Assembly: GCA_965368975.1 (NCBI GenBank)
Contig: CBDUPA010000019.1
Coordinates: forward strand, 84,154 to 148,153
Origin: an uncultured bacterium
GTDB taxonomy: Bacteria; Acidobacteriota; Thermoanaerobaculia; Multivoradales; JAHZIX01
DNA: 64,000 bases
Direction: 5' to 3'
The position numbers and the translations under genes were made by a program. Shown here one piece after another: positions 1 through 27,435 of this stretch. The stretch's first letter is position 1; every line of letters begins with the position of its first letter. Under the pieces are notes generated by a model. The model made no database searches. It was not told the DNA's origin and worked only from the letters and a program-made list of their open reading frames with translations.

Positions 1-2600
1 AGGCGGACTCCGGCCAGGGGGTGTCCCAAGCGCAGGTTGCCCTGGCTTGCCGGAGCGGCGCCAGCGGAACGGCGCAGCACGTCCAGGTTGCGCGCCTCGA
101 TGGCGGTCGCGGTGACGGTGGTTTCGGTCGGGCCATAGGACGACAAGAAGTCCATCGGCCAGGGTGCCAGCCCGGCCCAGGTGCGCAGGTGCGCGTGTGG
201 CACGCTCTCGCCACCGGTCAGGCACAGGCGCAGACGGCGCGGCAGCGGCAGGCCGTGGGCCGCCGTGTCGTCGACCCAGGCGCGCCACAGCGCAGCCGGC
301 AGGTCGAGCACCGTCAAGCCATGGCGCGCGGCGTAGCCGAGCAGAGCCCGCCCGACCAGCAGGCGCGGCTGGCGCGGGATCAGCAACCCGGCACCGGCGC
401 CGAGCGCCGGGAAGGTCTGCAGAACCGAGGCGTCGAAGCTGAGCGGCGCGAAGAGCATCAGGCGGTCCGCGGGAGTGAGCGCGAGCTGCCGGCGGAAGGT
501 GGCGGCGAAGCCACCGGCGGAGGCCTGGCTGATCACGACGCCCTTGGCGGCACCCGTGGTGCCGGAGGTGTAGATCACGTAGGCGGCCGCCTGCGGATGG
601 ACCAGGCCCTGCTCCACCGCGACCGCCGCCGCATCCACCTCGTCGGCATCGTCCTGAGGAGCGTCGTCCGACGTGGCATCCTCCAAGCGTGCCACCGTGG
701 CGACACCCAACTCGGCCGCGAGAGCGGCATGCTCGGCGTCGGTCAAGACCACGGCGAAGGCGGCGTCGGCGGCGAGCTGCTGCAAGCGCGACGGCGGAGC
801 TTGGGGATCCACCGGCACGTACGCGGCGCCCGCCATGAGCACGCCGAGAATGCCGGTGAGGGCCCGCGGCGTGCGCTCGGCGAGCAGGCCGACGCGATCG
901 TCCAGGCCGACCCCGGCCGCGCGCAGTCTGCCGGCGACGGCACGCGCGCCACAGACGAGCGCGGCGAAGCTGAGGTGGTGACGACCGGCGAGCAGGGCCA
1001 CGGCGTCCGGACGCTGCGTCGCCTGCGCCACGACCGGCCCGTGTAGGCTGGGGCCGTGTAGGCTGGGGTCGGGCGAGTGAGGTACCGGGAGACCCTGGTA
1101 TTCGAACAACAGTGCCTGGCGCTCGGTCGGCGGCAAGGCAGGCAGTGCCCCGAGTCGTGTCTCGCTGTCGACCGCCGCCGGCAACACCGTCCCGAGCAGC
1201 CAGTGCAGCTGGTGCAGCAGGGCACCGACCGCGACCGGCTCGAAGGCCTGCCACTGCGCGTCCAACTTCAGGTGCAAGCCCGCCGCCGCGCCGTCGGCAC
1301 CCGCCGCCGGCTCGGCGATCAGGGTCAGGGGATAGTTCGTCTGCTCGCGCATGTGGGCGCGCCGGACGCGCAAGTCCTGCCCAGCCTGCTGGCTGGCGAG
1401 ACGGTCGACCGGGTAGTTTTCGAACACCAGCAAGGTGTCGAACAGCTGCTCACCGGCAGGCAGGGGGCTCCAGCGCTGGACGTCGGCGAGCGCGACGTAC
1501 TCGTGCTCGCGCACCTGCGCCTGTCGCGTCTGCTGCTGGTGCAGCCACGACGTCACACGCTGGCTCGGTGCCAGGCTCAGGCGCACCGGCAAGGTGTTGA
1601 TGAACAGCCCGACCATCTGGTCGATGCCGGACAGGTCAGCCTCGCGTCCCGACGACACGGCGCCGAAGACGATGTCCCGGTCGCCGCTGAAGCGTCCCAG
1701 CACCAGGCCCCAGGCTGCCTGCACCCAGGTGTTGAGCGTGACCCCGGCGTGGCGCGCGGCGGCGCTGACGGCCTCGGCCTGAGCGGCGCTCAGGTGCACC
1801 GAGCGCGCGAAATGGCCACCGTCTTGCTTGCCGGTCTCGGAACGGTCGTCCGTGCCCGCTTCCGCGGTGCTTGCTTCCACGGGCCGCTGTACAGCCAGCC
1901 GCGTGGGGGCACGCAAGCCGTCCAGGGTCGTGCGCCAGAACGTCTCCGCGGCGGCAGGATCACGCTCGGCCAGATCGCGCTCAGCCAACCAGGCGATGAA
2001 GTCGCGGTACGGACGAGCCGGAGCCAGGGACGTCGATGCGCCTCTCCGGCCTTCGCCCGTGGCGCGGGCACGACTTCCTGCCGCATAATGGGCAAGATCA
2101 CCCGCCAGATCCCGGATCAGCAGGGCCATGGACCAGCCATCGAGCAGCAGGTGGTGGTGACTGCACAGCAACGCCGGTCCTTCCTCAGCGCGCGAGATCC
2201 ACAGTAGGCGCAGCAAGGGCGGTCTCTGCAGGTCGAAGCCATGGCGGCGATCGGCAGCCAGCAGCTGGTCGAGTGCCCACGCGCAATCGTCGGTGCGCAG
2301 ACCGTCGAGTTCGATACGGCTCCAGGGCAGCGGCACCTGGCGGTAGACCGCCTGCAACGGCTGCGACCGATCCAGCCCCAGGATGCCGGTGCGCAACATC
2401 GGCTGCCGCGCCAGCAGTCGACGCCAGGCGGCAGCCATTGCGAGAGGAAGCGCCGCGGCGTCGAAGCTACCGTCGGTTTGCGGCTCCAGTTCGAGCAACA
2501 TCTGCCCGACGTAGGCACCGTCGGTGGGGGCCTGCAGGCTGTGAAAAATCATGCCGCGCTGCATCGGTGCCAGCGGATACAGATCCTCGATCGCTCCCCC
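1..2600 (-). other. DCL-type C domain and a partial A domain
   Basis: IEDLYPLAPMQRGMIFHSL and HHHLLLDGWS (DCL-like). A motifs YVIYTSGTTGAAKG, FDASVLQ and SSYGPTETTVT. Confidence 0.85.
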
Positions 2601-5600
2601 CGCACGCTCTTGCAGCGACAGCAGCTGCGCGGTCTCGGCGGGATTGTCCGCGAAGCCCGCCAGCGGCACGTCCTCGGGCCACAGGCGCAGAGCCTGGGCC
2701 GAGTCGCCGTACTGCACCAGCTCGGCCAGGCGCTGACGGAAGCGCTCGGCACGCGCCGGCATGCTCGCCCCGGCTTCAGCGCCGTCCGGATAGGTCCAGC
2801 GCAAGCACAGCCGGCCTTCGATCACCGCGCCGTTGATCTCGTACGCGTGCGGACGCGGCTGCCGTGGGCTGCGCAGGCTCCGCACGGGTCGATCCAGAGG
2901 CTGCCACCGTCCCGCCTCTCCGGAACCGGACTGGCCGGAACCGGCCCGGCCGCTGCCCGTCAAGCCAGCGCCACCTGCCTGGCCGAGATAGTTGAACACC
3001 AGGTGCCGGGGCGGCAGGTTGGCCAGTGCCTTGGACGCGTGCGGCGGTCCCAGGTAGCGCACGATGCCGAAGGGAATGCCCCCCTCCGGCAGGGCTCGCA
3101 GCTGCCGCCGCACGCTGCGCAGGTCCGCGGCCGCCTCCGGCGCTTCATCCAGGGGCAGCAAGACCGGGAACAACGCGGTGAACCAGCCGGCGACGTCGCT
3201 GCACTCGACACCGGGCAGATCGCGCCCGTGCCGCTCCAGGTCCAGCCAAAGAGCTGTGCTTTCGGCGCGGTCGGGCCAGGCGCGCGCCAGCACAGCGAGC
3301 AAGACCTCGTCGACCTTCATGCGCAGACGGCTGCTTACCGGACCGAGCAGACGCGTGGTCAGCTCGCGGTCGAACTCGACGTCGAGACTGGCGGTGCGCT
3401 GTGGCTCGGCGGCTTCGACCGCCGTGGGCAGAATCGTCGACGGACGTGACCCCAACCACGGCTCCAGCCAGCACAGCGCGCCGTCCAGGGTGCGGGAATC
3501 GTGCGCCAGACGGACCTGGGCCTGCGCCCAGTCGCGGAAGCTCGCCGACGACCGTGCCGCAGCCCCGAACTCGCTGCCTGCCGCGGAGGCCAGAGCCGCG
3601 TAGCCCGCAGCCACATCGGAGAGCAGCAGACGCCAGGTCACGCCATCGACCACCAGGTGGTGGGCACACCACAGCAGCTCGGCCGGCGCGGTGCCGTAGG
3701 TGAGCAAGAGCACGCGCAGCAGCGGCCCGCGCGCGAGGTCGAAGCGACCCTGAAGGGCCTCGCCCAGGCGCCGGGCTTCCGACTCACGCGCGGCCGGCGC
3801 CAGGCGTTCGAGATCGACATGCACCAGGCTGTCGAGCTGGCGCGCTTCAGCTCGCGACGCGTAGCGCTGCTGCCAGGTGCCACCGTCCTTGCCCGGACGC
3901 TGATCGAAGCGCAGACGCAGCGCGTCGTGACGTTCGGGCAGCTGCCGCAAGACCCGTCGCAGCAACGCCGGATCGAGCGGCGGATCGCCAGCGTCGCGCA
4001 GCCACCACGCCTGGTTGAAGTGGTGCGGGTCGCGCACGCCGGGACGCAGGAACCAGTGCTGGATCGGCGTCAGCGGAACCGGCCCCTCGAGCAGCCTGTC
4101 GGAACTGGGAGTGGTGGCGAAAGCTGGACCGGACTCGGCGACAGCGACTCCCCCGCTACCCTGCTCCACGCCACTCTGCTGCAGGAGGGCCGCCAGCGCT
4201 CCCAGCGTCGGGTGCTCGAAGAGTTGACGCGGCGTCAGCGTGAGGCCGGCCTTGCGCGCCTGCGACACGACCTGGATGCTGAGGATCGAGTCGCCACCCA
4301 GCTCGAAGAAATGGGCATCGGCTCCCGGCAGGGTCTCCAGCCCCAGAACCTGCTGCCACACTTCGGCCAGGCGAGCCCCCGTCGAGCCGAGCGTCGCAGA
4401 GGCCTCGGCCGTTCGCTCGAGGGCCGTGTCCTGCGCAGCTCCGTCCATGGCCGTGCCTTCCATGGCCGTGCCTTCCATAGGGAGTGACCGCCGCGCCAGT
4501 TGGCTGCGGTCCACCTTGCCGTTGGGCAGCTGCGGCAAGGTCTCCAGCATCTCGATGCGCGACGGCACCATGTAGACCGGTAGACGGGTCCCGAGATGTG
4601 CCAGCAGGCGTCGACGCAGGCCATCCTCGTCCGGACTGTTCGCGACGCTGTCGCCTCGCTCCGCGGCCGGCTCGACGTAGGCGACCAAGCGCGTGCCCGC
4701 GTGCACCACGGTCACCGCGCGGCGCACCTCCGGGTGGCCGGCCAGCAGCGACTCGATCTCGCCCAGCTCGATGCGGAACCCGCGCAGCTTCACCTGGTGG
4801 TCGAGACGGCCCAGGTAGTCGAGTCGACCGTCGGCCAGGCGCCGCACCAGATCGCCAGTGCGGTACATCCGCGAACCGCCTATTCTCAGCGCGGCACCAT
4901 CACGGTCCGATTCGTGCCTGCACGGGCGTCCAGCGGCCAGCCCGGTGGCCAGCCCAGCGGCGAGTGCCGTAGCAAGTACTGGCACCGCGGGCAGGAAACG
5001 CTCAGCGGTCAGTGCCGGCCGCCCCAGGTAGCCGCGAGCGAGTCCGCCACCACTGAGATGCAGATCTCCCGCGACGCCGACCGGCTGCACGCGCGCATGG
5101 CGATCGAGAACGGCGGCGGTGGTCCCGGGCAGCGGCAGACCGAGTGTCACGCGCACGCCGTCTGGCGTGGACTTCAGCCGCGTGCCGGTCGAATAGGTCG
5201 TGTCTTCGGACGGGCCGTAGAGGTTGCGCAGCTCGACCCGCGGACGCAGCTGCAGCAGCTGCCCCGCAAGCGTCGGCGGCAACGGCTCTCCCGCCAGGTT
5301 GACCGCAGCCAGCGCCGGCGGCAGTGCGGCTTCTCCGTCTTGCTCCAGCGCCACCAGGGCGGTGAGTGCCGAGGGCACCGTGTTGACCAGCGAGACGCGC
5401 GCGGCGGCACGCAGGTGCGGCAGCTGCAAGGCGTTGGCCGCGAGCACGACGCTGCCGCCGTGGACCAGCGGCGTGAAGAGTTCGAACACCGACAGGTCGA
5501 AGCACACCGACGTCGCCGCCAGGGTGCCCGCGAGCTGCGCCGCCGTGAAGGTCTGCCCGGCCCAGCGCATGCGCGCCACGGCCCGCCTGTGCTCGATCGC

Positions 5601-8600
5601 CACTCCCTTGGGCTTGCCGGTCGAGCCCGAGGTATAGATGACGTACGCTAGGCGCTCCGGACGGCTGTGATCCGGGAAGTTGTCCAGAGAATCGGCCAGG
5701 CTCGCCCCGGTCCGCTGCTCCTCCTCTGCGAGCGACACCTCTGCGAGCGACACCTCCACCAGCAACGCCGGATCCACCACCTCCACACCCGACGAACTCT
5801 CGCCACCGTCGCTGATCAGCAGCAGCGCGGCACCGGAGTCCTGCAGCATGAAGACGGTGCGCTCGGCCGGATAGGCCGGATCGAGGGGGACATAGGCCGC
5901 CCCGGCGCGCAGCACGCCGAGCAGGCTCTCGACCAGCAGCGGTGTTCGCGGCAAGGCGACGCCGACGCGGGGCTCCGCCTCGGAACCCGTCAAGGCCTCC
6001 GCTGGCGCGATTCGGTCTGCGACCCCGGTAGCAATGCGGCCGGCACGGCGCCACAACTCGCGGTAGCTCACGTGCCGGGAACCGGCGACCAGGGCCACGG
6101 CCTCCGGCACGCGTCCAGCACTGGCGGCGACCAGCGAGGCGAGAGTCTCGCTAGCAAGAATGTCGCCGGTAGCCTTCCGCAGCGAGGCGGGGCCGTGCCA
6201 CTCCTGGGCGAGCTGATGGCACTCGGCCGGGCTGAGCAGCTCGAGCCGTCGCAGGCGTTGTTGCGGCTCGGCCGCGAAGCCGGCAAGCAGCTGTCGATAG
6301 TGACCGAGCAGGCGCCGGATCGTCGTCGCGTCGACAAGGGCCGGCCGGTACTCGGCATCGAGACGCAGCGTACGAACACCGGCACCGTCCCGCAGCGGCG
6401 TGACGCTCAGACTGAGGTCGTACTTGGCGCCTCCAGCCGCGACCGACAGCGGTCTCACTTCGACGCCCGGCAAGCCCACCGGAGCCGCCGACGGTGCCTC
6501 GGTGTTCTGCAGCACCAGCAGGGTTTGGATCAGGGGCTCGCGGTCGAGTCGACGTTCCGGCTGCAACGCCGCCACCAGCTGACTGAAGGGCAGATCCTGG
6601 TGGGCGTAGGCTTCGAGCGTCACGGCGCGCACGCGCTCTAGCACCTCGGCGACCGTCGGTCCGCCGGACGTCGTCGAGCCACCGAGATCGAGGCGCAGAG
6701 GCAAGGTGTTGACGAACACACCGAGCAGCGGTTCCAGCTGCTGCTGCGTGCGTCCCGCCACCGGCGTGCCGACGGCCAGGTCGGTCGCGGGATCGCCAGC
6801 GCCGCCGTGGCGGCTGAGCAGTTCGCCGAAGGCAGCCAGCAGCACCATGAAGACCGTCAAGCCAGAACCAGTCAAGCCCGACGAGCGTGTCAGCTCTTCG
6901 ATGGCAGCGGTCTCGGCCGGCGTCAGCGTCTCCAACAAGCGAGCACCACGCGCCGCCTCAGCCGTGTCGACCGTCGACCGTGGACGATCGACCGGCAGTT
7001 CGACCGGCGGCGGCGGCGGATCCAGCCGGCGGCGCCAGACGCGCAACAAGTCTTGCAGCCGTTCGCCCTGGAGCTGGCGGCGCTGAGCGACGGCGAAGTC
7101 GGCGTACTGCAGAGGCAGGGGTGGGATGGAGGCCGCTTCGTCGCCATAGAAGGCACCGACCTCAAGCCACAGGCGATGCCACGACCAGCCGTCGGCGACG
7201 GTGTGGTGCAGCTCGATCAACAAGCGGTGCTTCGGCTCAGAGAGGTGCTTTGTGGCGGAGTCAGGAGCCGAGGGCAAGCGCAGCAACACAGTGCGCAGCA
7301 AGGGACCGCGCGAGAGATCGAAGCGACGCCCGGCCGCGCGGGCCAGCAGCTGGTCCGCGAGTGTGCCCACTGCGATAGCCGCCACTTCGGAACTGCTCCC
7401 CGCCAGCGCCCCTAGGTCGACGACAGGCAGCGCGGTACTCGCGCGCACGATCGGCGACGAGGCGGGCAGGATCTCCTGGTAGGGACGCCCGTCCAGTTCG
7501 GGCAAGCGCGTGCGCAGCACTTCGTGCCGCTCGACGACCCGCCGCAACGCCGCGCGCAAGCGCGCCACGTCCAGACGGCCGCGCAGCTCCAGGGCCGCCG
7601 GCAAGTTGTACGCGGTGCCACTGTCTTCCAGGCGCTCCAGGAACCACAGGCGCTCCTGGGCAAAGCTCAGGGGCGGATGCTGGGGTCGCGGCGGTAGCAG
7701 GTCCAGATCGAGGTCGACCGCATCGAGAGGGATGACTCGATCGGCCTCGGCTGCGGCCGACAAGCCAGGGTCCCGCGCCTCGAGCAAGCCCGCCAGGGCG
7801 TGGGGCGTCGACGCCGTGAACAGCTCAGGCAACGACAGCTCGGCCCCGATTTCGTCGCGCAGCAGCGACAGGAAGCGGGTGGCGAGCAGGGAGTCGCCGC
7901 CCAGCTCGAAGAAGTCATCCTGCGCACCGACCTCGGGCACGCCCAGCAAACGGCCGAGCAGCGCGGCGATGCGGCCGGCGACAGTATCGTCGATGTCCGA
8001 GGGCGCAACGGCCGACGAAGCGACCTCCACCTCCGCGTCGACTCGCAGGGGCATTGAAGGGGCCGAATGGGGCTGGGCGGGGCCCGTCTCGCCAGCCCAC
8101 AGCGGTGCTATGCCGTCCAGCTCGACCCAATGACGCTGCCGCTGGAAGGCGGTTCCCGGCAGGTGCCGGCGCCGCGGTGTCTGGGTCGCCGAGCCGTCGA
8201 AACGCTGCCAATCGACATCGGCGCCCGCCAACCACAGACGTCCCAGCGCCTCCAGTGCACGGGCTCGATCGTCCTCCTGGGCCTCGGCAGCATCGCTTTG
8301 CCGGCGCATCGACGCAATGGCGGTCACCGGCTTTCGGCTCGGGACATCACTCTTGGGTTGCAGGCCATCCTGTCGCAGCGTCTGGCGCGCCAGGCTGCCG
8401 AGGGTGCGGCCCGGTCCGACTTCCAGTAGCACCAGGTCCTCGAGTTGACTCAGGCACTCGACGCCGTCGGCGAAGCGTACGGACCGGCGCAGGTGACGGG
8501 CCCAGTAGTCCGGATCCTGGGTCTGCTCGGCGGTCACCCAGTCGCCGGTCAGGTTGGAGATGTACGGCAGGGTGGGTGGACGCAGCTCGACGCGGCCGAC

Positions 8601-11600
8601 CGCTTCGGCGAAGGCAGCGCAAATCGGCTCCATCATCGCCGAGTGGAAGGCGTGGTCGGTCGGCAGGCGGCGGCAGCTGATGCCGTCCGCTTCGAGCCGC
8701 GCCTGCATCGCTTCGACCGCCGCGACCGGCCCGGTCAGCACGCACACGGACGGTGCATTCACGGCCGCGACTTCGACCCGCTCGCCTGGGTTACCAGCTT
8801 CGTCCTGGGACGCTTGCAGGTAGCGCGCTTCGATGTCGCTGCCGGCAGCCGCCACGCTGACCATGGCACCACCGTCCAGCGGCTCCATCAATTCTCCACG
8901 CAGCGCCATCAGGTCGAGCGCGTCGCGCAAGCTCAGCACGCCGGCCAGCGTCGCAGCCGCGTACTCGCCGACGCTATGGCCGAGCAGCGCTACCGGTTCG
9001 ATCCCCCAGTGCTGCCACAGTCGCGCCAGTGCCACCTCGACCAGCAGCAACGCTGGCTGCGCCCAGCGCGTGCGCCGCAGCTGTGCCGCGGCCTCGCTGT
9101 CGTCGGCGGGCGCGTGCAGCAGGGTGCGCAGATCAAGCCCCAGGCGCGAGCGCAGGTGCTCGGCTCCCTCGTCGATCCAGCGCCGGTACTCGGGCTCGGT
9201 CTCGTACAGGGCCGCGCCCATGCTGGGGAACTGGCTCCCCTGCCCCGGCAGCAGGAAGGCGACGCGCGGCCGGGCACTGCCGGCGGTGATCGCGCGCAGG
9301 TGTGCAGGCACGTCGCGGCTGCGCAGCGCGCGCATGGCTCCGGCCACATCGCGGCACACCACCAGGCGACGTGTCGGCCAGCGTGGACGGCCGCTGCGCA
9401 GCGTATGCGCCACATCCGCCAGATCGGGGGCGGCCAGATCGGGGGCGATGCGCTCGGAGACGACCTGCTCGTCCAGCCAGGTCGCCAAGTCCTCGCAAGT
9501 GGTGTGCAGGGCCGCCGGTGTGTGCGCCGATAACAGCAGCAGGTGCCAGGCGTCCCCGGCGGCGCTCTCGGCGGGTGGCTTCGGCTCGTCGGCGACAGCT
9601 CCGGCGATCGCGGAAGGTGCCTGCTGCAGCACGACGTGCGCGTTGGTGCCGCCGAGCCCGAAGGCACTGACACCCGCACGGCGCGGCAGCTCGGAGGACG
9701 GCCAGGACTCGGCCTGGCCGCTGACGTAGAAAGGCCCCTCCTCGAAGGGAGCCGCCGGATTGGCCGTCTCGAAGCCGGCGGTCGGCGGTACGACGCCATG
9801 ACGCAGCGCCAGCACCGTCTTGATCAGGCCAGCGATCCCCGCCGCCGCGCCCAGGTGACCGATGCTCGCCTTGACGGCACCCAGGGGTCGCCGGTCGTCG
9901 ACCTCGGCGAACGCCCGGTTGAGCGCCGACACTTCGATCGGATCGCCCAGCTGCGTGCCCGTGCCGTGCGCCTCGACATAGCCGATCGTGGCCGCCTCGA
10001 CCGCAGCGTCGGCGTGCGCGGCCGCGATCACGCGGGCTTGGGCCTCGATGCTCGGGGCGGTGAAGCCGGCTTTGTGCTTGCCGTCGTTGTTGACCGCCGA
10101 GCCCAGCACGAGGGCATGAATCGGGTCCCCCGAGGCCAAGGCATCATCGAGCCGACGCAAGGCCACCAAGCCAGCACCACTACCCCAGACGGTGCCGTCG
10201 GCCGCCGCATCGAAGGCTCGGCAGCGACCACTCAGCGCATCGATGCCGCCTTCTTCGTACAGATAGCCCGTGACCTGCGGCACCTTGATCGACACACCAC
10301 CGGCCAGGGCCAGGTCGCAGTCACCCGCGCGCAGTGCACGGCACGCCAGGTGCACCGCCACCAGGGCGGTGGAACACGCCGTCTGGACGCTGACGGCGGG
10401 GCCGCTGAGCCCCAGGCGGTAAGCCAGCTGGGTGACGAAGTAATCACGGTCCGCGCCCATCGCCAGCTGGTAGGCGCCCACCTCGCGCAGCAGGTTGGGA
10501 TCGCGTTGCAGGTAGTGCAAGAAGTAGGTGGAGAGCGTGCCACCGGCGAAAACGCCGATCGAGCCGGCAAAGCGTTCGGGATCGACCGCAGCATCGTCGA
10601 GAGCGAGACGCGCGGTCTCGAGCAACAACCGCACCTGCGGATCGAGCAGCTGAGCCTGACGCGGCGTCAGCCCGAAGTGCTCGGCGTCGAAGTCCTCGAC
10701 ACCGTCGAGCACGCCCCGACCGCGCACCAACTTCGGATGCGTCACCAGCTCGGCAGGCAGGCCCGCCGCCAGCAACTCTTCGTCGGTGAAGCGGCGCACC
10801 GCCTCGCGACCGTCGAGCAGCTGCCGCCAGAAGGCGTCGACATCGGGCGCACCCGGGAACCGGCCCGCCATGCCGACGATGGCGATCGGTACGGCACTCT
10901 CGCCAACACCGGCACTGGCACTGGCACTGGCACCGGCCGGCCGAGACGCTTGCAGCACCTGGGCTCGGACCGCCGGCTCCGACGTCTCCAGCAGGCGTGC
11001 CAGGTAGCGAGCCTGCCCGCGCACCGTCGGATGCGCGAACAGCTCGACCAGCGGCAGCTCACGGCCCGCCAGCTGCTGCAAGCGCGCGTGCAGACGCACC
11101 AGCAGCAGCGAGTGACCGCCGAGGTCGAAGAAACTGGCTTCCGGGTCGACCGCTGGCACTTCGAGCAACTCGGCCCACAACGCCTCGATGTCGCGCTCCA
11201 GCCGTTCTTCCGGCGTCGAGCCGGGCAGCAGCGGCGCGGCGGCCAGTTCGGCTCCAGAAACGGCTCCAGGCACTACCTGTGCCGACGAAGCCAGTACCGA
11301 CGAAGCCAGTACCGACGAAGCCAGTGCCGACGAAGCCAGCGCCGGCAGACGCTGGGCCAGGGCGCGGCGATCGACCTTGGCGTTGGCGGTCAGCGGTAGT
11401 CGATCGAGGACCTCGAAGGCCGCGGGCACCATGTAGGCCGGCAGACGCTGCAGCAACGCGGCGCGTACCGCTCCGGGGTCGATCCCGCCCGTGGCAACGG
11501 CCCCCGCCGATCCCGCCTGGGGCACAAGGAACGCGACCAGGCGACTGGCCACTCCCAGCTGCGGTCCCCTCAGCCCAGTACTACTGCTCGGGCCCTGCGC

Positions 11601-14600
11601 CAGCACCACCGCCTCGCGCACCTCTGGCAGGGCCACTAGGACCGCTTCGATCTCCGCCGGTTCGACGCGGAACCCGCGAATCTTGATCTGCTTGTCCCGG
11701 CGACCGGCGAACGCGACTTCGCCATTGGGTAGATAGCGGCCGAGATCGCCGGATCGATAGAGGCGAATCTGCGACTGGGTGCGGGCAGCGTCAGGATGGA
11801 CTACATCCGGTGTGAACGCCAGAGCCGTGGCGCGGGGATCGTCCAGGTAGCCGCGCGCCAGGTGCGGACTGCGCACGGCGATCTCGCCCAATTCGCCGAC
11901 GCCCGCCGGGCGGTGGTCGCGATCCAGCACCAGCAACTGCACATCGCGCATGCCGTGCCCGAGCGGCAGCACGGGACGCGCAACATCGGCCGCCGAGGCG
12001 ACGTGGTACGAAACCGCTCGCTGGGTCTCGGTCGAGCCGTAGAGGTTGACCACGGTGACCGACGGCGCCAGCTGCCGCAGGCGCTCGACATCGCGACCAC
12101 GCAGCGCCTCTCCCACCAGCAGGACTCGGCGCAGCGCGGGCAGGCGCACTGGTTGCGCACGGACAGCCTGCGCACGGACAGCCTGCGCACGGATCGTGTC
12201 GCCTTCGCACAAGACCTGTCCCAGCGCTGGCGTCAAGTGAGCGACCGTCACCCCGACCTCGGCCATCCAGGCGGCCAGCCGACCGGCAGCGGTCAAGTCT
12301 CGGGGATCGGGAACGGCGAGCTCAGCGCCCAGGAAAATCGGCGTGAACAGGTCGCGCTGCAGCGGATCGTGACCAAGGCCAGAGAGCAGGCTGAAACGGT
12401 CGTCCGGTCCCATTTCCAGCGTCGCGCACTGCCAGGGCAGGAAGTGAGTCAGCGGTCCGTGGCGCCCCTCGATTCCCTTGGGGACGCCAGTGGAGCCGGA
12501 GGTGAAGGCGACCAGCGCCAGGTCTTCGGGACCGATCTCGACGTCGGGCACGGCGGTTCCGGTCGTCGGTAGGCCTGTCGTCGGCAACTTCTGGACGAAG
12601 TCGAGGGTCTCGGCTTGGCTGCCGACCGGCAGCTGCAGCAGGGAGGCCGTGCGCTGCTGGCACCAGGTCGCGACACTGGGACCCTCTTCGTCGCGCGCCG
12701 GCGCCAGGCTAGACAGCACCGCGGTTTCTGCCGCTGGTGGCAAGAGTTCCAACACGGCGCTCGGTCGCGCCGCATCGAGCATCTGAGCACGACGCACGGC
12801 TGGCCACGCCGGGTCGAGCAGGACCAGCGCGGCCCCCGCCTTGAGAACGCCGAGGACCGCCGGCAGCAACACCGCGGCACGCCACGTCAGGATCGCCACG
12901 CGGTCGCCGCGCCGTACCTCGTGCGCCACCAGCCAAGCCGCCAGCGCGTCACTGACGACCGCGACCTCGCCATAGCTCCAAACGCCGTGTCGATCCCGCA
13001 CCAGGGGCCTCTCCGGCTGGCGACGCGCGTGCTCGGCGAAGTGCTGGTGGATCGGGCCGTGCCAGCTGGTCTCCAGGATCTGTCGTGGGTCTGGCAGCAG
13101 CTGCGCCGCCTCGACAGTGCGCAAAGGCAATGCCGCCAGCTGCTGATCAGGGTCCGCCACTGCCGCCGTCAGCAGCGTTGCCAGCTGGCGGGGCCAATCC
13201 TCCATGCGCGCGGCGTCGAACAGCGCGGCGTCGTAGTGTAGCTCCCAGCGCAAGCCGCCATCCGCCAGTTCCTCAATGTAGAAGGTGACGTCGAACTTGG
13301 CCGGCAGTTCCGGCGGCGTCAGCAGGTCGACCTCCAAACCGGCCAGCGTCGGCGTCACCGGCGGCAGGTTGAGCAGGTTGACGAAGACCTGGAACAGGGG
13401 CGTTCGAGCCGGGTCCCGCTCCGGGCGCAAGCGCTCCAGCAGCGCCTCGAACGGGACGTCCTGATGCCCGAAGGCCCCGATTGCGGCGGAACGGACGCGT
13501 TCCAGGAGTTGCAGGAAGCTCAGCCGAGGCGTCACCTGGGCCCGCAGCACCAGGCTGTTGAGAAATAGGCCCACGATGCTCTCGGTCTCGACGTGCTGGC
13601 GCCCGGCCACCGGCGTGCCGATCGCGATGTCCGTCTGACCGCTGTGGCGGGCCAGCAAGACCTGGATCGCCGCCGTCAGCACCATGAACAGCGTCGCTCC
13701 GCCGCGCCGCGCCAGCGCCCGCACGCCATGGACCAGGGTCGCGGGCCAGTGTTGATGAACACTGCCACCCGAGGCATCGGGGTCTCGTCGCGGCGGTCGT
13801 GGACGGTCGGTGGGGAGTTCGAGGACTTCCAGCCCCTCCAACGTCTCGGACCACCAGTCGAGCTGTGCCTGTGCCCGCCGGGCGACAAAGCCGCGCTGCC
13901 AGAGCGCGAAGTCGGGGTACTGCAGGCGCGCGGGCGATTCCGTGTGCCTCGCGCCCTGTCGCTCTCCTGGGCGCTCGCCTGGCTGGTCGTTTGGCTGGTC
14001 GCCTGACTGGTCGCCTGGCTGGCCCGCCTGCCAGCCCGCCTGCAGATCACGCATCATGAGCCCGAGCGACCAGCCGTCGGCGGCGATGTGGTGAACGTTG
14101 AGGTGCAGGTGGTGCCGGTCACTAGCCAACCGCAGCAGCAGTGCCTTCAGCACCGGGCCGCGCGACAGGTCGAACGACCGGCCACCATGCGCCGCGCCCA
14201 GTTGCCGCGCCACGGCGTCGGCTTCGGCGGCATGCGCATGAGAAAGCGTCAAGCGGCGCAGATCGATCACGGGCAGCCGTAGCGCCGCCGGCTCCTGCAC
14301 GATCTGCCGAGGCTCATCGCTGGTATTGGACACGAAGACCGTGCGCAGCGCCTCGTGGCACGCCACCAGGTGGTCGAGCGCGGCGCTCAGCCTGGCGACC
14401 TGGAAGGTCCCGATCAGTCGCAGACCCGCGGCAATGTTGTACGCCGCGGACCCGACCTGGAGTCGGTCGAGCAACCACAGACGTTGCTGCGAGTACGACA
14501 GGGGAAGTTCGCGCAGCCCTGGCGGCCGGACGGTAGGGGCTTCCTCGTAGGTTACCTCTTCGATGGAGGCCTGCTCGATGCCCACTTCCCCGATAGGGAC

Positions 14601-17600
14601 CTGCTCGACGGATGCCTGCTCGATGGCTACTGGCGGCGCTGGCACGGAGAGCGGCAGCTCGGACCAGCGCAGCAAGGCTTGTCGCCGCGCGCCGGCCGGC
14701 AGGCTAGGGAGTTGGAGATGGGGTAGCTGCTCGAGCGGCGTGTCGGGCTGCGCCAGAATCACCTCGAGCAGGTTGGCGATGTCATCCACCCAGCGCAGTG
14801 CCGTCGCGTCGTCGAACAGGTCACGAGCGAAGGTGAGCTCACCGCGCAAGCCCTCGGGCCAGCGCTGCACCATCAGGGTGAGGTCGAACTTCTCCGCCGG
14901 CAGGACGGGCGCGGCCGAGACGTCGAGGCCATGCAAGGCAGGTGGCTCGAGCACCCGGTCATTCCACGCCAGCATGGTCTGGAACAGGGGCGAGCGGCTG
15001 CGCTCCGGTCTGGTTTCGAGCGCCTCGGCCAGGCGTTCGAAGGGCAGCAGGCCGTGCGCAAAGACGTCGAGCACCCGGCGGCGGACCGTCTCCAGCAGGG
15101 CGGCGAACCCATCGCCCTCAGGGTTTCCTTGCGCCGGTACCCGCACCACCAGCGTGTTGGCGAAGTAGCCGATCAACGGCTCGAACTCGGGGCGTTCGCG
15201 TCCCGCGATCGGGAAGCCGATGGCCACTTCCGCCTGCCCAGCATGACGCCCGAGCAACAGCCCCCAGGTAGCCAGTAGCACCATGAAGGGCGTCGCGTCT
15301 TGCTGGGCCGCGAAGCGTTCCAGGCGCTCCAGCAGCTCTGGCGACCAGCCGAGCGGCAGCAAGCTGGAACGGTGGCTCGGCCGCGCCGGCCGTGGCCGAT
15401 CGGTCGGCAGGTCGAGGACCGGCAAACCGGAGAGTCGCGGACGCCACCAGGCCAGTTCGTGCTCCACCACGTCGGAGCTCAGCAAGCGCCGCTGCCAGAC
15501 CGCATAGTCAGCGAACTGGAACTGCAAGGCCGGCAGCGCCTCGGAACCGCCATGACAGAGAGCGTTGTAGAACCACTCCAGTTCCTGCAGCAACACCGCC
15601 ACCGACCAACCGTCCGCGGCAATGTGGTGCAGGTTGAGACCCAGCACACAGTCGTCGCTCGCCGTGCGCCAGACGGTGGCCCGCATCAGGGGACCGGCGG
15701 CCAAGTCGAAGGGCTGGCGTGCCGCCGCTGCCAGAGGCGGAGCAACACCGGGGACCTCGGTCAGGTCGACGACCTGCACGGGAAACCGGGCCGGCAGCGC
15801 GCCGGCAGGCTGAATCACTTGTACCGGCGAACCGCCGGCGGTGCGCATGACGGTTCGCAGACTCTCGTGCCGAGCGACCACGAGGGCCAGAGATCTCTCC
15901 AGGACCCGCACCTTCAGGTCCCCGCGCAGGCGTAGCCCCACGGGGATGATGTAGGCCCCGGTTGCCGAGCCCAGGCGGTCGAGCAGCCACATGCGTTCCT
16001 GACCGAACGACAGCGGCGGCAGGTCCTCCGGCACACCGCTGGCACCTCGACTCAGTGCGACCAAGGGCGTCGCCGCCAGGCTGGCGGCACTGTTGGTTCT
16101 CGAGGCGGTTCTCTCAGTACCCGCCTCAGCCTCAGTGATCGCTCCCGACGCCGCGTGATCGACTCCCGGGATCGTTGCCAGGGTGGCCGCCAGGTCGGCG
16201 ACCACGGGCGCTTGAAAGATCGTCTCGAGCGGTACCTCGACGTGGAGTTCGAGCCGCAGCCGCGCGGCCAGGCGTGTCGCCAGCAGCGAGTGTCCACCAA
16301 GCTCGAAGAAGTCGTCGCCGCGCCCCACGTGCTGGCGCTGCAGAACCTCGCCGACGGCCCGGGCCACCAGAACTTCCAGCCCTCCACGCGGAGCCTCATA
16401 GGCCTCGCCCACTGTCTGCATGGCGCGCGCGGCCAGCAGCTTGCGATCGACCTTGTGATTGGCGGTCAGCGGCAGCGCATCGAGCCGTTGCAAGGCGGAC
16501 GGCACCATGTAAGGCGGCAGCCGCCGGCCGAGCTGGCTGCGCAGGAGTGTCTCGTCGAGATTGCCAGCGCCGGGTGCCGGCACCACGAAAGCCACCAGGC
16601 GCGCGTGGTGTTCCTCCCCCACCACCAGCACGGCCGCCTCGTCGACGCCCTCCTGCTGGCGCAGGGCCGCCTCGATCTCGCCCAACTCGATGCGAAAGCC
16701 GCGGACCTTGACCTGGTGGTCGAGGCGGCCGAGGAAGTCGAGCCGCCCATCGGCGCGCAGGCGGCCCAGGTCGCCGGTGCGGTACATGCGGGCCCCCACC
16801 TGGCGCCTGCCGCACGCGAGCTCACTGGTGGACACCGCCGCCGGCACGTCGAGCTGTGGCACGAAGGCCATGGCCGTGGCCGCCGCCCGTCGCAAGTAGC
16901 CGCGCGCAACGCCGGCACCCCCGAGCACGATCTCGCCCGCAGCGCCCAGCAGCACCGGCCGCTGCGTCCGATCCAGCAAGTAGATTGCCACGCCATCGAC
17001 CGGCCGGCCGATGGGCGGCACGCCTACAGCGCCTTCGGGCACCCAGCCATAGGAGGCCACGACGGAACTCTCCGTCGGCCCGTAGTTGTTGACCAATTCG
17101 AACGGCAAGCCAGGCCGTGGCGCCGCGTGCAGACGATCGGCTCCGGTCAACAGCAGGGACAGTCGCGCGCCACGCGGCCACGACAAGCGCATCAGCTCTT
17201 CAGCCAGCGGTGACACCAGGAAGGTCGACTCGGCACCGCGCGTCAGGAACCAGTCGCGCAGTCGCGGAGGATCGCTGACCGCAGCGTCGGAGGGTACCTG
17301 CAAGGTCGCGCCGCAGGTCAACACCGACCACAGGTCCCAGACCGCGACGTCGAAGCCCAGGCCCGAGACGAGCGTGGCGCTGCGGCGGGCGCCCGGCTGG
17401 TCTGGCCCCCCGATCGCATACCGGCGCTGGTGCCAGTCGATCAGGTTCGCCAGCCCAGCGTGGTGCACCTGCACGCCCTTGGGTCGCCCGGTGGAGCCGG
17501 AGGTGAAGATCATGTACGCCAGCTGTTGGGGCTCCGGGGCCTGTAACTGAGGGGCCTGTAACTGAGGGGCCTGTAGCTGAGGGGCCTGTAGCTGAGGCGT

Positions 17601-21890: not shown

Positions 21891-22898
21891 TCAGCCCTTG
21901 TGCCTTTGGTGCGCCGCGAGCGCCGACTTGGCGATACCTGCGGCGTCGAGGCCAAAGTGCGCCAAGTGCACGTCGTGCGTTCCGAGAACCGGCGAGAAGG
22001 TATCCGGAATTCCGAGGATCTTCATCGGTGTCGGCCGGCGCGTGGCCAGAGTCTCGGCCACCGCACCACCCAGGCCGCCATAGACGTTGTGCTCCTCGAC
22101 GGTGAGGATCAGGCCGGTCTCCTCTGCCGCCTGCTCCAGCAACTCGGCGTCGATCGGCTTGATGCTGTACATGTCGATGACGCGTGCGTCGATACCCTGC
22201 TCGGCCAGCTTGGCCGCCGCCTTCAGGCTCTCCGGCACCACCGCGATGCCGGCGGCAACCAGCGTCAGGTCCTTGCCGTCGCGCAGTACATGGCCCTTGC
22301 CGATCTCGAAGCTGGCGTTCTCGTCGTAGACCTGCTCAGCATCGTCCATACCGATGCGCAAGAAGGTCGGCCCCTCGTACTCGACGCAGGCCATCGTCAG
22401 GTGGTAGGTCGCCACACCGTCGGCCGGTGCCACGACGGTCATGCCGGGCAGCGCACGACCAATGGCGATATCCTCAATGGCGTGGTGGGTCGGACCTGAG
22501 AAGCCCGACTGCATGCCGGCGAAAGTGCCGAAGATCTTGACGTTGGTGTTGTGGTAGCAGATCTCCAGGCGCACCTGCTCACAAGCACGCATCAAGGCGA
22601 AGTCGGCGAAGGTGTTGACCATCGGAATCTTGCCGCGCAACGCCAGGCCCGAGGCGACGCCGATCAGGCTGGCCTCGGCGATGCCGACGTCGATCCAGCG
22701 GTCCGGGAACTCGTCGCGAAAGTCGAAGCCGAAGAAGTCGCCCAGGTCGGCCTCGACCGACCACACGCGTTCGTCCTGCTGGCCGGCGTGCAGCTGGCCC
22801 AGACGGTTGGTGCGCACGGTCGACAGGCCGTACTTCTCGATCCACGCGGCACTGCCGGGTGCCGGCTCCGTTGTAGGAGGTGTCAGACGGCGACTCAT
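21891..22898 (-). CDS. Transketolase C-terminal (pyrimidine-binding) subunit, paralog 2
   Basis: GIAEASLIGVASGLA, FADFALMRACEQVR, GPTHHAIED, IKPID and TVEEHNVYGGLG. Its start overlaps the upstream stop (ATGA, 22895-22898). Confidence 0.92.
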   Translation of the reverse strand: MSRRLTPPTTEPAPGSAAWIEKYGLSTVRTNRLGQLHAGQQDERVWSVEADLGDFFGFDFRDEFPDRWIDVGIAEASLIGVASGLALRGKIPMVNTFADFALMRACEQVRLEICYHNTNVKIFGTFAGMQSGFSGPTHHAIEDIAIGRALPGMTVVAPADGVATYHLTMACVEYEGPTFLRIGMDDAEQVYDENASFEIGKGHVLRDGKDLTLVAAGIAVVPESLKAAAKLAEQGIDARVIDMYSIKPIDAELLEQAAEETGLILTVEEHNVYGGLGGAVAETLATRRPTPMKILGIPDTFSPVLGTHDVHLAHFGLDAAGIAKSALAAHQRHKG

Positions 22899-23755
22899 GA
22901 TGCACTCCGCGGCCGGATGGCCTCCAAATCCTTGAACGCCTGCTCGCGCTGCTCGGCATTCATCTTGCCATAGTGCCAGGCGTGGTTACCCTCGGCGTAG
23001 GAGATGGACTTGCCCTTGACGGTCTGCGCGATGATCACCGACGGCTTACCGGAGGTGAACGGAATGTCGTGCAGCGCGGAACTCAGCGCCTCGACATCGT
23101 GGCCGTCGATCTCGCGCGCGTCCCAGCCGAAGGCGCGCCACTTCTCGGCGAACGGCTCCAGCGACATGATGTCCTCGGTCTTGCCGTCTTCCTGCACGAA
23201 GTTGCGGTCGACGATCGCCACCACGTTGTCCAGCTTGTAGTGTGCGGCGGTCATCGCGGCCTCCCAGATCGAGCCTTCCTGGCACTCACCGTCGCCCAGA
23301 ACGACGTAGACACGCCGGTCTTCGCCGTCGTGCTTGGCGGCCAGCGCGATGCCGTTGCCTACGCCCAAACCGTGGCCCAGCGAACCGGTCGCCAGCTCGA
23401 TGCCCGGAATCGCCTTCGACGGATGGCCAGCCAGACGGCCGCCGGTCTTCTTGTACTCCTTCAGCTCCTCCACCGGGAAGAAGCCACGCTCGGCCATGGC
23501 GGCATAGAGCGACGCGCTGGAGTGCCCCTTGCTGAAGATGAAGTAGTCGCGGTCTTCCCACTTCGGGTTGCTGGGATCGACGCGCACCACGCCGTCGAAG
23601 AGCAGCACGGTGAGGATCTCTACCGACGACATCGAGCCGCCCAGGTGGGCGCCCGGCGAGTCGGCGCACATCCGGACGATGTGTTCGCGCAGGGTATAAG
23701 CGATGGCGCGCAGGTCGTCCGCGGAGGCGGCATTGGTGGCGCTGGCGGTAGGCAT
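22895..23755 (-). CDS. Transketolase N-terminal (ThDP-binding) subunit, about 286 aa
   Basis: AHLGGSMS, SKGH, LAGHP, TGSLGHG and the ThDP motif GDGECQEG...DRN. ATG at 23755 follows AAGGAG. The track's longer 24106 start overlaps the aminotransferase and was rejected. Confidence 0.92.
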   Translation of the reverse strand: MPTASATNAASADDLRAIAYTLREHIVRMCADSPGAHLGGSMSSVEILTVLLFDGVVRVDPSNPKWEDRDYFIFSKGHSSASLYAAMAERGFFPVEELKEYKKTGGRLAGHPSKAIPGIELATGSLGHGLGVGNGIALAAKHDGEDRRVYVVLGDGECQEGSIWEAAMTAAHYKLDNVVAIVDRNFVQEDGKTEDIMSLEPFAEKWRAFGWDAREIDGHDVEALSSALHDIPFTSGKPSVIIAQTVKGKSISYAEGNHAWHYGKMNAEQREQAFKDLEAIRPRSAS

Positions 23756-23846
23756 AGGTTGCTCCTTCAGGCGTATATTGACGATGCTCTTTCGATATGT
23801 TTCTTCAGCAATTCCGGACCAGATTAGGCAGTTCAGAACAGCCAGG

Positions 23847-25181
23847 TCAGAACAACACGACCTCGCCCTCCCAGGGCTCGCGGTACTCGATCGACTTGGC
23901 GTAGCGCACGAACTCATCGCGGTTGGCGAACACCTTCTCGAACGCCGCGGCGTACAGGTCGACGTTGGCCGGCTCCATGAAGCTGGCCATACACAAGCGC
24001 TTGCCAACCAGCATCGTGCTGCGAATGACGTCCAACGTCTGCGGGTAGTCGTGGATGTCGTACTGAATGTCGCGCGAGTTGTGGCCACACGACCACGGGC
24101 AGCCACGGCCGTACCCGTCCTTGTTCTGGAACAGGTGCTGCCCCGGCAGTGGACGCGTCTGGTAGTGGATCAGCGGCACGCCCTCGGCCGCCATCACGTC
24201 GTCCAACGCCTTGCGCATCACGCCGGCATCCAGATCGAGGCCCGCCTCCTCCGGCTTCACGCGGAAGCGGAAGTGGTGGTAGACGTGGGTGCTGCCCTCG
24301 GGCACGTGGGGCGCTTCGAGTCCCGGTATGGCATCGAAACAAGCACGCAGCCGATCGGCGCCGGCTTGAACCCGCGCGATGTAGTCGTCGTAGCGGTCGA
24401 GCTGGCTGAGCGTGAACGCCGCCAGGATGCTGCTGAAACGGTAGTTCCAGCCCATGGTCATGGCGTTGTAGTCTCGCTCCTGCCCCTTGACCACCTTCTC
24501 ACCGAACATCTTGACCATGTCGGCTCGGTCGCGCAGATCGCTGTCGTTGGTGGTGAACAGACCACCCTCGCCGGCCGTCGCGAGGTTCTTGCCGGCCATG
24601 ATGCTGTACGTGCCCATGTCGCCGACATTGCCGGCCTGCTTGCCCTTGTAGAGGGCACCCGGTGCCTGTGCGTTGTCCTCGATCACCTTGACGCCGTGGC
24701 GGTGGGCGATCTCGATGATCGGATCCATGTCCGCCGGTAGGCCGTGGAGATGCACCGCGATGATCGCCTTGGTGCGATCGGTGATGTGCTGCTCGAGCTT
24801 CGTCGGATCGAGGGTATAGGTGCGCGGATCGACATCGGCGAACACCGGTAGGCCCTGGTGGTGGATGATCGCCGAGGCCGAAGCCAGGAACGACAGCGCC
24901 GGCACGATGACCTCGTCACCCGGCTCCACTCCCGCCGCCACCACCGCCGCGTGCAACGCCGCGGTACCGCTGTTGACCGCGATGCAGTACTTGCTGCCCA
25001 CGTAGTTGGCCCAGCGCTCTTCGAGCGCCGGCACGTCGTGCGTGTTGATCCAGCTCAAGTTGCCGGTACGCAGGCTGTTCGAGACGGCTTCGATGTCAGC
25101 TTCATCGACGATCGGCCAGGTCTCGGTGATCGCACCCGTGGCGACAGCGGGCGAGCCGCCGTGAATCGCTAGTTGACTCAT
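23847..25181 (-). CDS. DegT/DnrJ/EryC1/StrS family PLP-dependent aminotransferase
   Basis: NSGTAALH, GDEVIVP, TKAIIAVHLHG, VIEDNAQAPGA, PLP-lysine motif SIMAGKNLATAGEGG and GWNYR. AGGAG RBS upstream. Confidence 0.93.
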   Translation of the reverse strand: MSQLAIHGGSPAVATGAITETWPIVDEADIEAVSNSLRTGNLSWINTHDVPALEERWANYVGSKYCIAVNSGTAALHAAVVAAGVEPGDEVIVPALSFLASASAIIHHQGLPVFADVDPRTYTLDPTKLEQHITDRTKAIIAVHLHGLPADMDPIIEIAHRHGVKVIEDNAQAPGALYKGKQAGNVGDMGTYSIMAGKNLATAGEGGLFTTNDSDLRDRADMVKMFGEKVVKGQERDYNAMTMGWNYRFSSILAAFTLSQLDRYDDYIARVQAGADRLRACFDAIPGLEAPHVPEGSTHVYHHFRFRVKPEEAGLDLDAGVMRKALDDVMAAEGVPLIHYQTRPLPGQHLFQNKDGYGRGCPWSCGHNSRDIQYDIHDYPQTLDVIRSTMLVGKRLCMASFMEPANVDLYAAAFEKVFANRDEFVRYAKSIEYREPWEGEVVLF

Positions 25182-25192
25182 TCCATGTGCTC

Positions 25193-26197: not shown

Positions 26198-26260
26198 CAC
26201 TGCTCCTCCAATTGTAGATGCCCGATAGCGGACCAAAGTAAATCAAGGGAAACGGCGGCC

Positions 26261-27427: not shown

Positions 27428-27435
<8 letters not shown>
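26611..27435 (+). CDS. Formylglycine-generating enzyme (FGE-sulfatase/SUMF1) domain protein
   Basis: RWIPPGTFLAGSP, ETPCTQ, PVEQVSWD, RLPTEVEWEYACRAG, PNPWGLYDMLGNVLEWC and RGGSW...GFRL. It lacks the two-cysteine catalytic loop of true FGE. Confidence 0.88.

What the first reader, a model, noticed from the sequence alone, without database searches (positions are those of the whole stretch)
11000..13080. Fungal Lys2-like adenylation domain embedded in a bacterial elongation module ahead of a KS
The motifs GRHGPLTHFLPW, HDPLQRDLFTPIFLGA, AHLTPALGQ and YGSTETQRAVS match alpha-aminoadipate reductase A domains and differ from every other A domain in the window. The code DPRHLVLRAK resembles Lys2 (DPRHFVMRAK), and its DPRH start also occurs in the gamma-Glu-activating McyE domain. 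Such domains adenylate the side-chain carboxyl. Here the domain is followed by T-KS rather than a reductase. Inference: Aad or Glu is tethered through its side chain and extended with malonate, giving an iso-linked long-chain beta-keto amino diacid with a free alpha-carboxyl.
Basis: partly seen in the sequence, partly recalled or inferred. Interest (0 to 1): 0.8.

Follow-up and report, generated by a model that had tools for sequence, protein, structure and literature searches.

The report
Lys2-like loading domain feeding a ketosynthase
One amino-acid-loading domain in a giant bacterial lipopeptide assembly line resembles the fungal lysine enzyme Lys2, belongs to a large unstudied bacterial branch, and probably attaches an acidic amino acid by its side-chain acid before a polyketide step lengthens it.

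Summary
All four motifs lie on the minus strand at window 12009-12467, inside a 13,258-aa FAAL-primed NRPS/PKS gene. By my mapping the specificity code is DPRHLVLRAK. The best NCBIfam match is the Lys2 model TIGR03443 (402-446 bits). None of nine other A domains of the window reaches E 1e-60 on that model. The domain is followed by T-KS-AT-T-C with no reductase.

"Fungal" is wrong. It belongs to a large bacterial clade of C-A-T modules, with over 414 relatives in species genomes, mostly Acidobacteriota MAGs. The same code recurs 51 times among 240 homologous proteins. In 79 related loci, 39 of 81 such domains are also followed by T-KS.

KS after A-T is not special here. This genome has 200 A domains and 14 A-T-KS junctions, 13 of them with ordinary codes.

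Side-chain tethering is plausible but unproven. Zmn16 A1 of zeamine (DPRHLALLAK) matches a side-chain-linked Asp found by NMR. Lys2 and ACVS module 1 use the delta-carboxyl of aminoadipate. Asp must be added to Aad and Glu as a candidate.

The scan has already met this bacterial branch on other DNA. Verdict: a real member of an uncharacterised clade, with inferred chemistry. Interest is moderate.

The parts
14772..16046 (-). First of two tandem condensation domains (ORF1 residues 1934-2358), LCL-like, with HHIAADG intact
   Evidence: Own C-domain profile, 543 bits. No T domain lies between it and the next C domain.
13176..14519 (-). Second tandem condensation domain (residues 2443-2890), directly upstream of the A domain, with HHIAADG intact
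   Evidence: TIGR03443 also aligns its ADA region (model positions 2-232) here.
11346..13082 (-). Lys2-like adenylation domain A* (residues about 2922-3500), code DPRHLVLRAK. Core motifs A3, A5, A7, A8 and A10 are intact.
12154..12193 (-). 15-bp in-frame tandem repeat (2.7 copies) inside A*, between the AHLTPALGQ motif and the VGE stretch. It encodes the repeated VRAQA stretch.
10995..11219 (-). Carrier (T) domain of the A* module (residues 3543-3617), with GGHSL serine motif
9606..10910 (-). Ketosynthase (residues 3646-4080) with Cys (TACST), EAHGTGT and ASIGHLG motifs present
8286..9257 (-). Acyltransferase (residues about 4197-4520) with GHSVGE and HAFH motifs. No KR, DH or ER lies before the next carrier.
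   Evidence: About 100 residues separate the AT end from the T start.
7776..8000 (-). Carrier domain of the PKS module (residues 4616-4690), GGDSL motif
6291..7694 (-). Downstream condensation domain (residues 4718-5185). It passes the chain to an A domain with code DLFNNALTYK.

Best explanation
A* is an active member of a large, uncharacterised bacterial branch of adenylation domains. That branch is the closest bacterial kin of the A domain of fungal Lys2.

Proposed mechanism:
1. A* adenylates an acidic alpha-amino diacid at its distal (side-chain) carboxyl and loads it on the following carrier. My order of likelihood is 2-aminoadipate first, then Glu or Asp.
2. An upstream condensation domain acylates the free alpha-amine with the fatty-acyl-Leu chain. 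That chain is made by the FAAL and first module.
3. The KS-AT-T module then adds one malonate unit to the side-chain thioester and leaves the beta-keto group.
4. The next C domain joins the chain to an Ala-type residue.

The result would be an iso-linked 2-amino-omega-oxo diacid residue with a free alpha-carboxylate.

Shown:
- domain identity and order
- intact catalytic motifs
- Lys2-likeness
- clade membership
- recurrence of the A*-T-KS arrangement

Inferred:
- the substrate
- side-chain regiochemistry
- the product
For: 1. The Lys2 model TIGR03443 is the best NCBIfam match. It matches 8 of 8 aligned clade members at E <= 1e-60. It matches none of nine other A domains of the window at that level.
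2. The pocket has Arg239, His278 and Arg330, which fits an anionic distal group.
3. Characterised DPRH or Lys2-type enzymes use a side-chain carboxyl:
   - Zmn16 A1 has code DPRHLALLAK (PMC3547906 Table 2). It corresponds to an N-terminal "gamma-aspartate" found by NMR in prezeamine (PMC5811116, passages).
   - PARAS notes two A domains that tether Asp by the side-chain carboxyl (PMC13126170, passage).
   - ACVS module 1 adenylates Aad on the delta-carboxyl (PMC7884236, passages).
4. The same assembly line already uses conventional codes for alpha-Glu (DAKDLGVVDK, four times) and for Asp/Asn types. A* therefore does something else.
5. A sister sub-branch lacks Asp235 but keeps Arg239, His278 and Arg330 (NHRHFGFRAK 24 times, SHRHFGFRAK 10 times). 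This hints that the wider branch does not need the alpha-amine contact.
6. All A, T, KS and AT core motifs are intact.
Against: 1. No call tests substrate or regiochemistry.
2. Asp235, the usual alpha-amine contact, is retained in A*.
3. Code similarity within a clade partly reflects ancestry. D-P-R-[HN] and R-A are nearly constant across 175 domains.
4. Chain length is therefore undetermined.
5. In this genome 13 of 14 A-T-KS junctions have ordinary alpha-activating codes. Extension of alpha-tethered residues is the local norm.
6. I found no aminoadipate supply pathway. There is no LysW, and the LysX-like gene is RimK. No supply gene lies in the cluster.
7. The phylogeny with Lys2, ACVS, McyE and Zmn16 could not be run, because no tool returned those sequences.
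Confidence: 0.5

Rival explanations
1. A* activates the alpha-carboxyl of an acidic or otherwise polar amino acid, for example alpha-tethered aminoadipate or another non-proteinogenic residue. The module pair then makes an ordinary gamma-amino-beta-keto acid, as other NRPS-PKS junctions do. The basic pocket residues would bind the side chain.
For: - Asp235 is retained.
- 13 of 14 A-T-KS junctions in the same genome use ordinary A domains.
- 34 of 81 clade members sit in plain C-A-T-C modules.
- In the tree, the C and KS contexts interchange at least 6 times and up to 11, with the same code.
Against: - Every characterised enzyme I could tie to this signature uses the side-chain carboxyl.
- Conventional Glu and Asp/Asn codes are present in the same assembly line.
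- A sister sub-branch has lost Asp235.
Confidence: 0.3
2. The substrate is not an amino diacid at all. The Lys2-like code would reflect shared descent only, and the clade loads some other building block with an amine and an anionic or polar distal group.
For: - The clade has no characterised member among the 240 proteins and 79 loci retrieved.
- The PARAS authors list 2-aminoadipic acid among hard-to-predict, under-represented substrates (PMC13126170, passage).
- NRPSpredictor called Zmn16 A1 as Aad, and the residue found was Asp.
Against: - Two Arg and one His in the pocket.
- The very narrow code variation across 175 domains points to one conserved anionic substrate class.
Confidence: 0.15
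3. A* is a degenerate or skipped domain. The module would be served in trans, or the tandem C-C marks a broken module.
For: - The unusual C-C didomain upstream.
- The long terminal branch of A* in the tree, 0.82.
- An in-frame repeat lies inside the domain.
Against: - A3, A5, A7, A8 and A10 motifs, the carrier serine and the KS Cys-His-His are all intact.
- The 13,258-aa frame is open.
- TIGR01733 scores above its cut-off, 343.6 against 317.4.
Confidence: 0.05

Closest known systems
Lys2 / alpha-aminoadipate reductase (NCBIfam TIGR03443; fungal ADA-A-T-R)
   Same: - The A-domain core is the best family match, 402-446 bits over model positions 233-733.
- The motifs HDPxxRD and YGxTETQRA are shared.
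   Different: - The score is far below the 1030-bit cut-off.
- There is no reductase: T is followed by KS-AT-T-C.
- A full condensation domain stands where Lys2 has the ADA half-domain.
- It sits inside a multimodular bacterial lipopeptide line, not a primary-metabolism enzyme.
Zmn16 A1 of the zeamine NRPS (Serratia plymuthica), and by report the fabclavine counterpart
   Same: - A bacterial NRPS A domain with a DPRH-type code, DPRHLALLAK, 8 of 10 identical (PMC3547906).
- Its product residue is a side-chain-linked Asp (PMC5811116).
- A PKS module acts later in the same line.
   Different: - Zmn16 A1 is in the loading module, so its amine stays free.
- Position 330 is Leu, not Arg.
- The PKS module follows the sixth residue (Val), not the DPRH residue.
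- Its sequence could not be fetched, so its kinship to A* is not measured.
ACV synthetase module 1
   Same: It activates 2-aminoadipate on the delta-carboxyl and makes an iso-peptide bond. It carries a C-like N-terminal domain, and an origin from an elongation module has been proposed (PMC7884236).
   Different: - It is an initiation module, followed by C and not KS.
[quoted passage not shown]
- It belongs to a different A-domain lineage according to PMC2823734.
Bacterial sister group of fungal AAR A domains (Bushley and Turgeon 2010)
   Same: Bacterial A domains that group as sister to the fungal Lys2 subfamily with high bootstrap support (PMC2823734, passages). This fits the clade found here.
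   Different: That paper had only pseudomonad sequences and assigned no function. The clade seen here is dominated by Acidobacteriota MAGs. I could not see its additional files.

Membership tests
Lys2 / L-aminoadipate-semialdehyde dehydrogenase (TIGR03443 equivalog) | Whole-protein score at or above the curated cut-off of 1030.1 bits | tested here: not met
   445.9 bits for A-T. 516 bits with flanks in the genome search.
Lys2 / L-aminoadipate-semialdehyde dehydrogenase (TIGR03443 equivalog) | A-T-R architecture with a C-terminal thioester reductase | tested here: not met
   The carrier is followed by ketoacyl-synt, Acyl_transf_1, PP-binding and Condensation domains.
Lys2 / L-aminoadipate-semialdehyde dehydrogenase (TIGR03443 equivalog) | A-domain core more like Lys2 than like generic NRPS A domains | tested here: met
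   TIGR03443 scores 401.8 bits against 343.6 for TIGR01733 on the same cut. Nine control A domains have no TIGR03443 match at E <= 1e-60.
Bacterial Lys2-like A-domain clade (code DPR[HN]..R[AS]K) | HDPxxRD (A4 region) and YG[STA]TE[TS]QR (A5 region) motifs | tested here: met
   Both motifs are present. 105 of the 120 best longer homologues carry the second motif.
Bacterial Lys2-like A-domain clade (code DPR[HN]..R[AS]K) | Groups with clade members apart from ordinary A domains | tested here: met
   A FastTree of 84 rows gives a 100* branch separating 82 clade rows, A* among them, from two ordinary A domains of ORF1. A* sits on a long branch, so its place inside the clade is unresolved.
NRPS amino acid adenylation domain (TIGR01733 / PF00501) | Score above the curated cut-off, with core motifs A3-A10 | tested here: met
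   343.6 bits against a cut-off of 317.4. Motifs are located.
Side-chain (omega) carboxyl-activating A domains (Lys2, ACVS M1, Zmn16 A1) | The thioester forms on the distal carboxyl, leaving the alpha-carboxylate free | not testable with these tools
   Only the pocket signature and literature precedent bear on it.
Hybrid NRPS-PKS elongation junction (C-A-T-KS-AT-T-C) | A-T directly followed by a condensation-competent KS, an AT and a second carrier | tested here: met
   There are 14 such junctions in this genome, and 39 of 81 clade domains in related loci have one.

The most novel reading that the evidence does not exclude
The bacterial DPR..RAK clade as a whole is a family of omega-carboxyl-activating, iso-linking modules. 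It has hundreds of C-A-T modules, about half of which feed a KS. The modules would install delta-linked aminoadipate or a close diacid.

This would make the clade the elongation-module stock from which Lys2-type reductases, and perhaps ACVS module 1, were proposed to derive. In this gene it would yield a lipopeptide residue not described before: an iso-linked 2-amino-oxo-diacid with a free alpha-carboxylate, made by PKS extension of a side-chain thioester.
Probability: 0.3. Interest if true: 0.75.

Novelty: new variant of a known kind. Interest (0 to 1): 0.5.

Why it matters
[quoted passage not shown] Predictors handle that substrate poorly (PMC13126170).

If this clade loads a diacid through its side chain, then hundreds of uncharacterised modules make iso-linked residues. 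Most are acidobacterial. Current tools would mispredict those residues.

The clade would also supply the missing elongation-module relatives of Lys2.

One assay on one domain would settle this. If the domain is an ordinary alpha-activating one instead, the finding reduces to a poorly predicted building block in a very large lipopeptide cluster.

Tried and rejected
It could not be run. Two homology searches returned only bacterial proteins that were unnamed or generically named. The PDB holds no close relative. The one genome-contig scan returned only MAGs.
2. **Literature search for the ten-letter codes.** The first try was swamped by ADPRH gene names. The second found 0 papers.
3. **Aminoadipate supply through a LysW-type lysine pathway.** This was a dead end.
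   - No LysW was found.
   - The LysX-like match is RimK.
   - Homocitrate-synthase-like matches fall below the cut-off.
4. **KS after A* as evidence of acyl-type loading.** Rejected. The same genome has 13 other A-T-KS junctions with ordinary codes.
5. **Tandem C domains as a recent duplication.** Rejected. Neither is the other's nearest relative.
6. **ESM Atlas look-up.** It returned only generic adenylation clusters.
7. **Earlier notes of the scan by place.** None were found.
8. **Literature search for Acidobacteria, aminoadipate and nonribosomal together.** It returned one irrelevant paper.
9. **Not done.** I did not predict or compare a structure, and I did not search for expression data.
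Full report
**Observation**

The window's minus strand carries an open frame from 21845 down to 3. In the genome it continues to 13,258 aa.

Pfam and my own domain profiles give this order for the gene's first part:

| Domain | ORF1 residues | Note |
|---|---|---|
| FAAL | 68-643 | |
| carrier | (after the FAAL) | |
| C | 770-1211 | |
| A | 1230-1800 | code DVWFLGNVVK |
| T | | |
| C | 1934-2358 | first tandem C |
| C | 2443-2890 | second tandem C |
| A* | about 2922-3500 | the domain in question |
| T | 3543-3617 | |
| KS | 3646-4080 | |
| AT | about 4197-4520 | |
| T | 4616-4690 | |
| C | 4718-5185 | |
| A | | code DLFNNALTYK |
| T, E and onward | | |

I read the ten specificity positions from a profile alignment. 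I placed them from the recalled PheA numbering, not from an alignment to 1AMU. They give DPRHLVLRAK for A*. The same columns give familiar codes for the other A domains, which argues that the mapping is sound.

The A, T, KS and AT catalytic motifs are all present. The AT has HAFH, which I recall marks malonyl-CoA. Only about 100 residues separate the AT from the next carrier, so there is no KR.

**Is A* Lys2-like?**

Yes.
- Its best NCBIfam match is the Lys2 equivalog TIGR03443: 445.9 bits for A-T and 401.8 bits for a 586-aa cut. This is ahead of the generic A-domain model TIGR01733 at 343.6 bits.
- Nine other A domains of the window, cut the same way, have no TIGR03443 match at E <= 1e-60.
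- In the whole genome A* is the top TIGR03443 match.
- It is the only DPR..RAK domain among 200 A domains.

It is not Lys2. The score is far below the 1030-bit cut-off and there is no reductase.

**Is it fungal?**

No.
- Two homology searches gave 240 proteins. Every one that bears a name is bacterial, with at most 54% identity.
- 105 of the 120 best longer hits carry YG[STA]TE[TS]QR.
- Among 494 A-domain hits in those proteins and the window's three ORFs, 235 have Arg at position 330.
- 52 of them have exactly DPRHLVLRAK, the window's own included.
- 175 of them, the window's own included, are of the DPR..RA type.
- Of 41 genomes of the window's order, G000 included, 11 hold a match at E <= 1e-80. 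The best foreign match is 57% identical, so no orthologous cluster was found in those searched.
The best 79 loci are all MAGs: Thermoanaerobaculia, other Acidobacteriota, Holophagales and two Herpetosiphonaceae.
- All 8 aligned members match TIGR03443.
- Bushley and Turgeon had already seen bacterial (pseudomonad) A domains as sister to the fungal Lys2 subfamily (PMC2823734, passages).

**Context**

In the 79 loci, the 81 DPR-type domains are followed as below:

| Next domains | Count |
|---|---|
| T-KS | 39 |
| T-C | 34 |
| other or cut off | 8 |

None of the 188 other A domains in the same loci is followed by T-KS. Those loci were centred on the DPR domain, so this contrast is partly built in.

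On a FastTree of 84 rows the KS and C states change 11 times, and starred branches force at least 6 changes. The same code occurs in both contexts. A* sits on a long branch of 0.82.

The control in the window's own genome matters most. It has 200 A domains, 34 KS domains and 14 A-T-KS junctions, 13 of them with ordinary codes. So a KS after A-T is routine here and says nothing about how A* holds its substrate.

**Mechanism**

The pocket has Arg239, His278 and Arg330, which fits an anionic distal group. The literature I could read ties this signature to side-chain activation.
- Zmn16 A1 has code DPRHLALLAK and was predicted to load Aad (PMC3547906, Table 2).
- NMR of prezeamine then showed an N-terminal "gamma-aspartate" (PMC5811116, passages).
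- PARAS mentions two A domains that tether Asp by the side-chain carboxyl (PMC13126170, passage).
- A review lists DPRHLALLAK for aminoadipate and DPRHVSLLAK for Asn domains (PMC12283262, passage).

Two further points favour a special role for A*.
- The same assembly line uses conventional codes for Glu (four times) and for Asp/Asn types.
- A sister sub-branch has lost Asp235.

Several points count against the side-chain reading.
- A* keeps Asp235.
- Much of the code is constant across the clade and may reflect descent.
- The code is equally close (8 of 10) to the Asp-linked Zmn16 A1 and to the quoted Lys2 code.
- No aminoadipate supply route was found.

I therefore put side-chain loading of an amino diacid at about 0.5. 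Ordinary alpha-loading of an acidic residue is at about 0.3. Another substrate is at 0.15, and a dead domain at 0.05.

**Comparison and novelty**

A* works most like Lys2, ACVS module 1 and Zmn16 A1, but it is a member of none of them. It belongs to an uncharacterised bacterial clade whose existence was glimpsed in 2010.

Three things are new here:
- the size of that clade
- its frequent coupling to a KS
- its position in an elongation module, so that the loaded residue would be acylated on its amine and extended on its thioester

This is a new variant of a known kind.

**Limits**

- No sequence of Lys2, ACVS, McyE or Zmn16 could be obtained, so the requested phylogeny was not run.
- No structure was predicted.

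Noticed in passing
window 13176-16046 (minus strand): Two full-length LCL-type condensation domains stand in tandem before A*, with no carrier between them. Both have an intact HHIAADG motif. Neither is the other's closest relative (about 40% identity to other C domains of the cluster), so this is not a recent duplication. Among 175 clade domains in homologous proteins, only one other (P0211) shows C-C upstream.
   Followed up: partly
window 1039-17597, e.g. 17536-17597, 12154-12193, 11279-11344: ORF1 is peppered with perfect or near-perfect 15-bp (five-residue) in-frame tandem repeats, 2-4.5 copies each. They lie in A-domain loops and linkers (QLQAP, VRAQA, SALAS-type). An earlier scan note (e1-4618606) reports in-frame repeats in A-domain loops of an acidobacterial NRPS.
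   Followed up: no
window 21891-26236 (minus strand) and 26611-27435 (plus strand): Several small genes lie between the two megasynthase operons. They are two transketolase C-terminal-type genes, one transketolase N-terminal-type gene and a DegT/DnrJ/EryC1-family aminotransferase. A formylglycine-generating-enzyme-like gene sits on the other strand. GC drops to 0.65 here against about 0.70 elsewhere.
   Followed up: partly
G000:C19:20260-148153: The assembly line is enormous. ORF1 (13,258 aa) is followed by ORFs of 2,347 and 12,957 aa that end in a carrier with no thioesterase. The upstream pair, ORF3 (cut by the contig end) and ORF2 (8,344 aa), ends in a thioesterase. They may be one non-colinear line or two products.
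   Followed up: partly
whole genome G000: The 7.1-Mb genome encodes about 200 adenylation domains and 34 ketosynthases in frames of 500 aa or more. It has 14 C-A-T-KS junctions. This is an unusually large share of a genome for NRPS/PKS.
   Followed up: partly
whole genome G000 (99.3% complete): I found no match to diaminopimelate decarboxylase (TIGR01048) or to Pfam PF00278. There is no LysW, and the only LysX-like gene is RimK. DapF is present. The last step of lysine synthesis is therefore not accounted for with these queries.
   Followed up: partly
G000 contigs C3, C23 and C8: Three further A domains start their code with DPRH but have Gln at 330 (DPRHIATQIK, DPRHVGAQIK, DPRHFGFQVK). They are only 32-36% identical to A*. 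The DPRH start therefore also occurs outside the tight Lys2-like clade.
   Followed up: partly
proteins P0008-P0060 and others: A sister sub-branch has codes NHRHFGFRAK, SHRHFGFRAK and SLRHFAFRAK. It forms the last A domain of about 2,800-aa NRPS proteins. It has lost Asp235 but keeps Arg239, His278 and Arg330.
   Followed up: no
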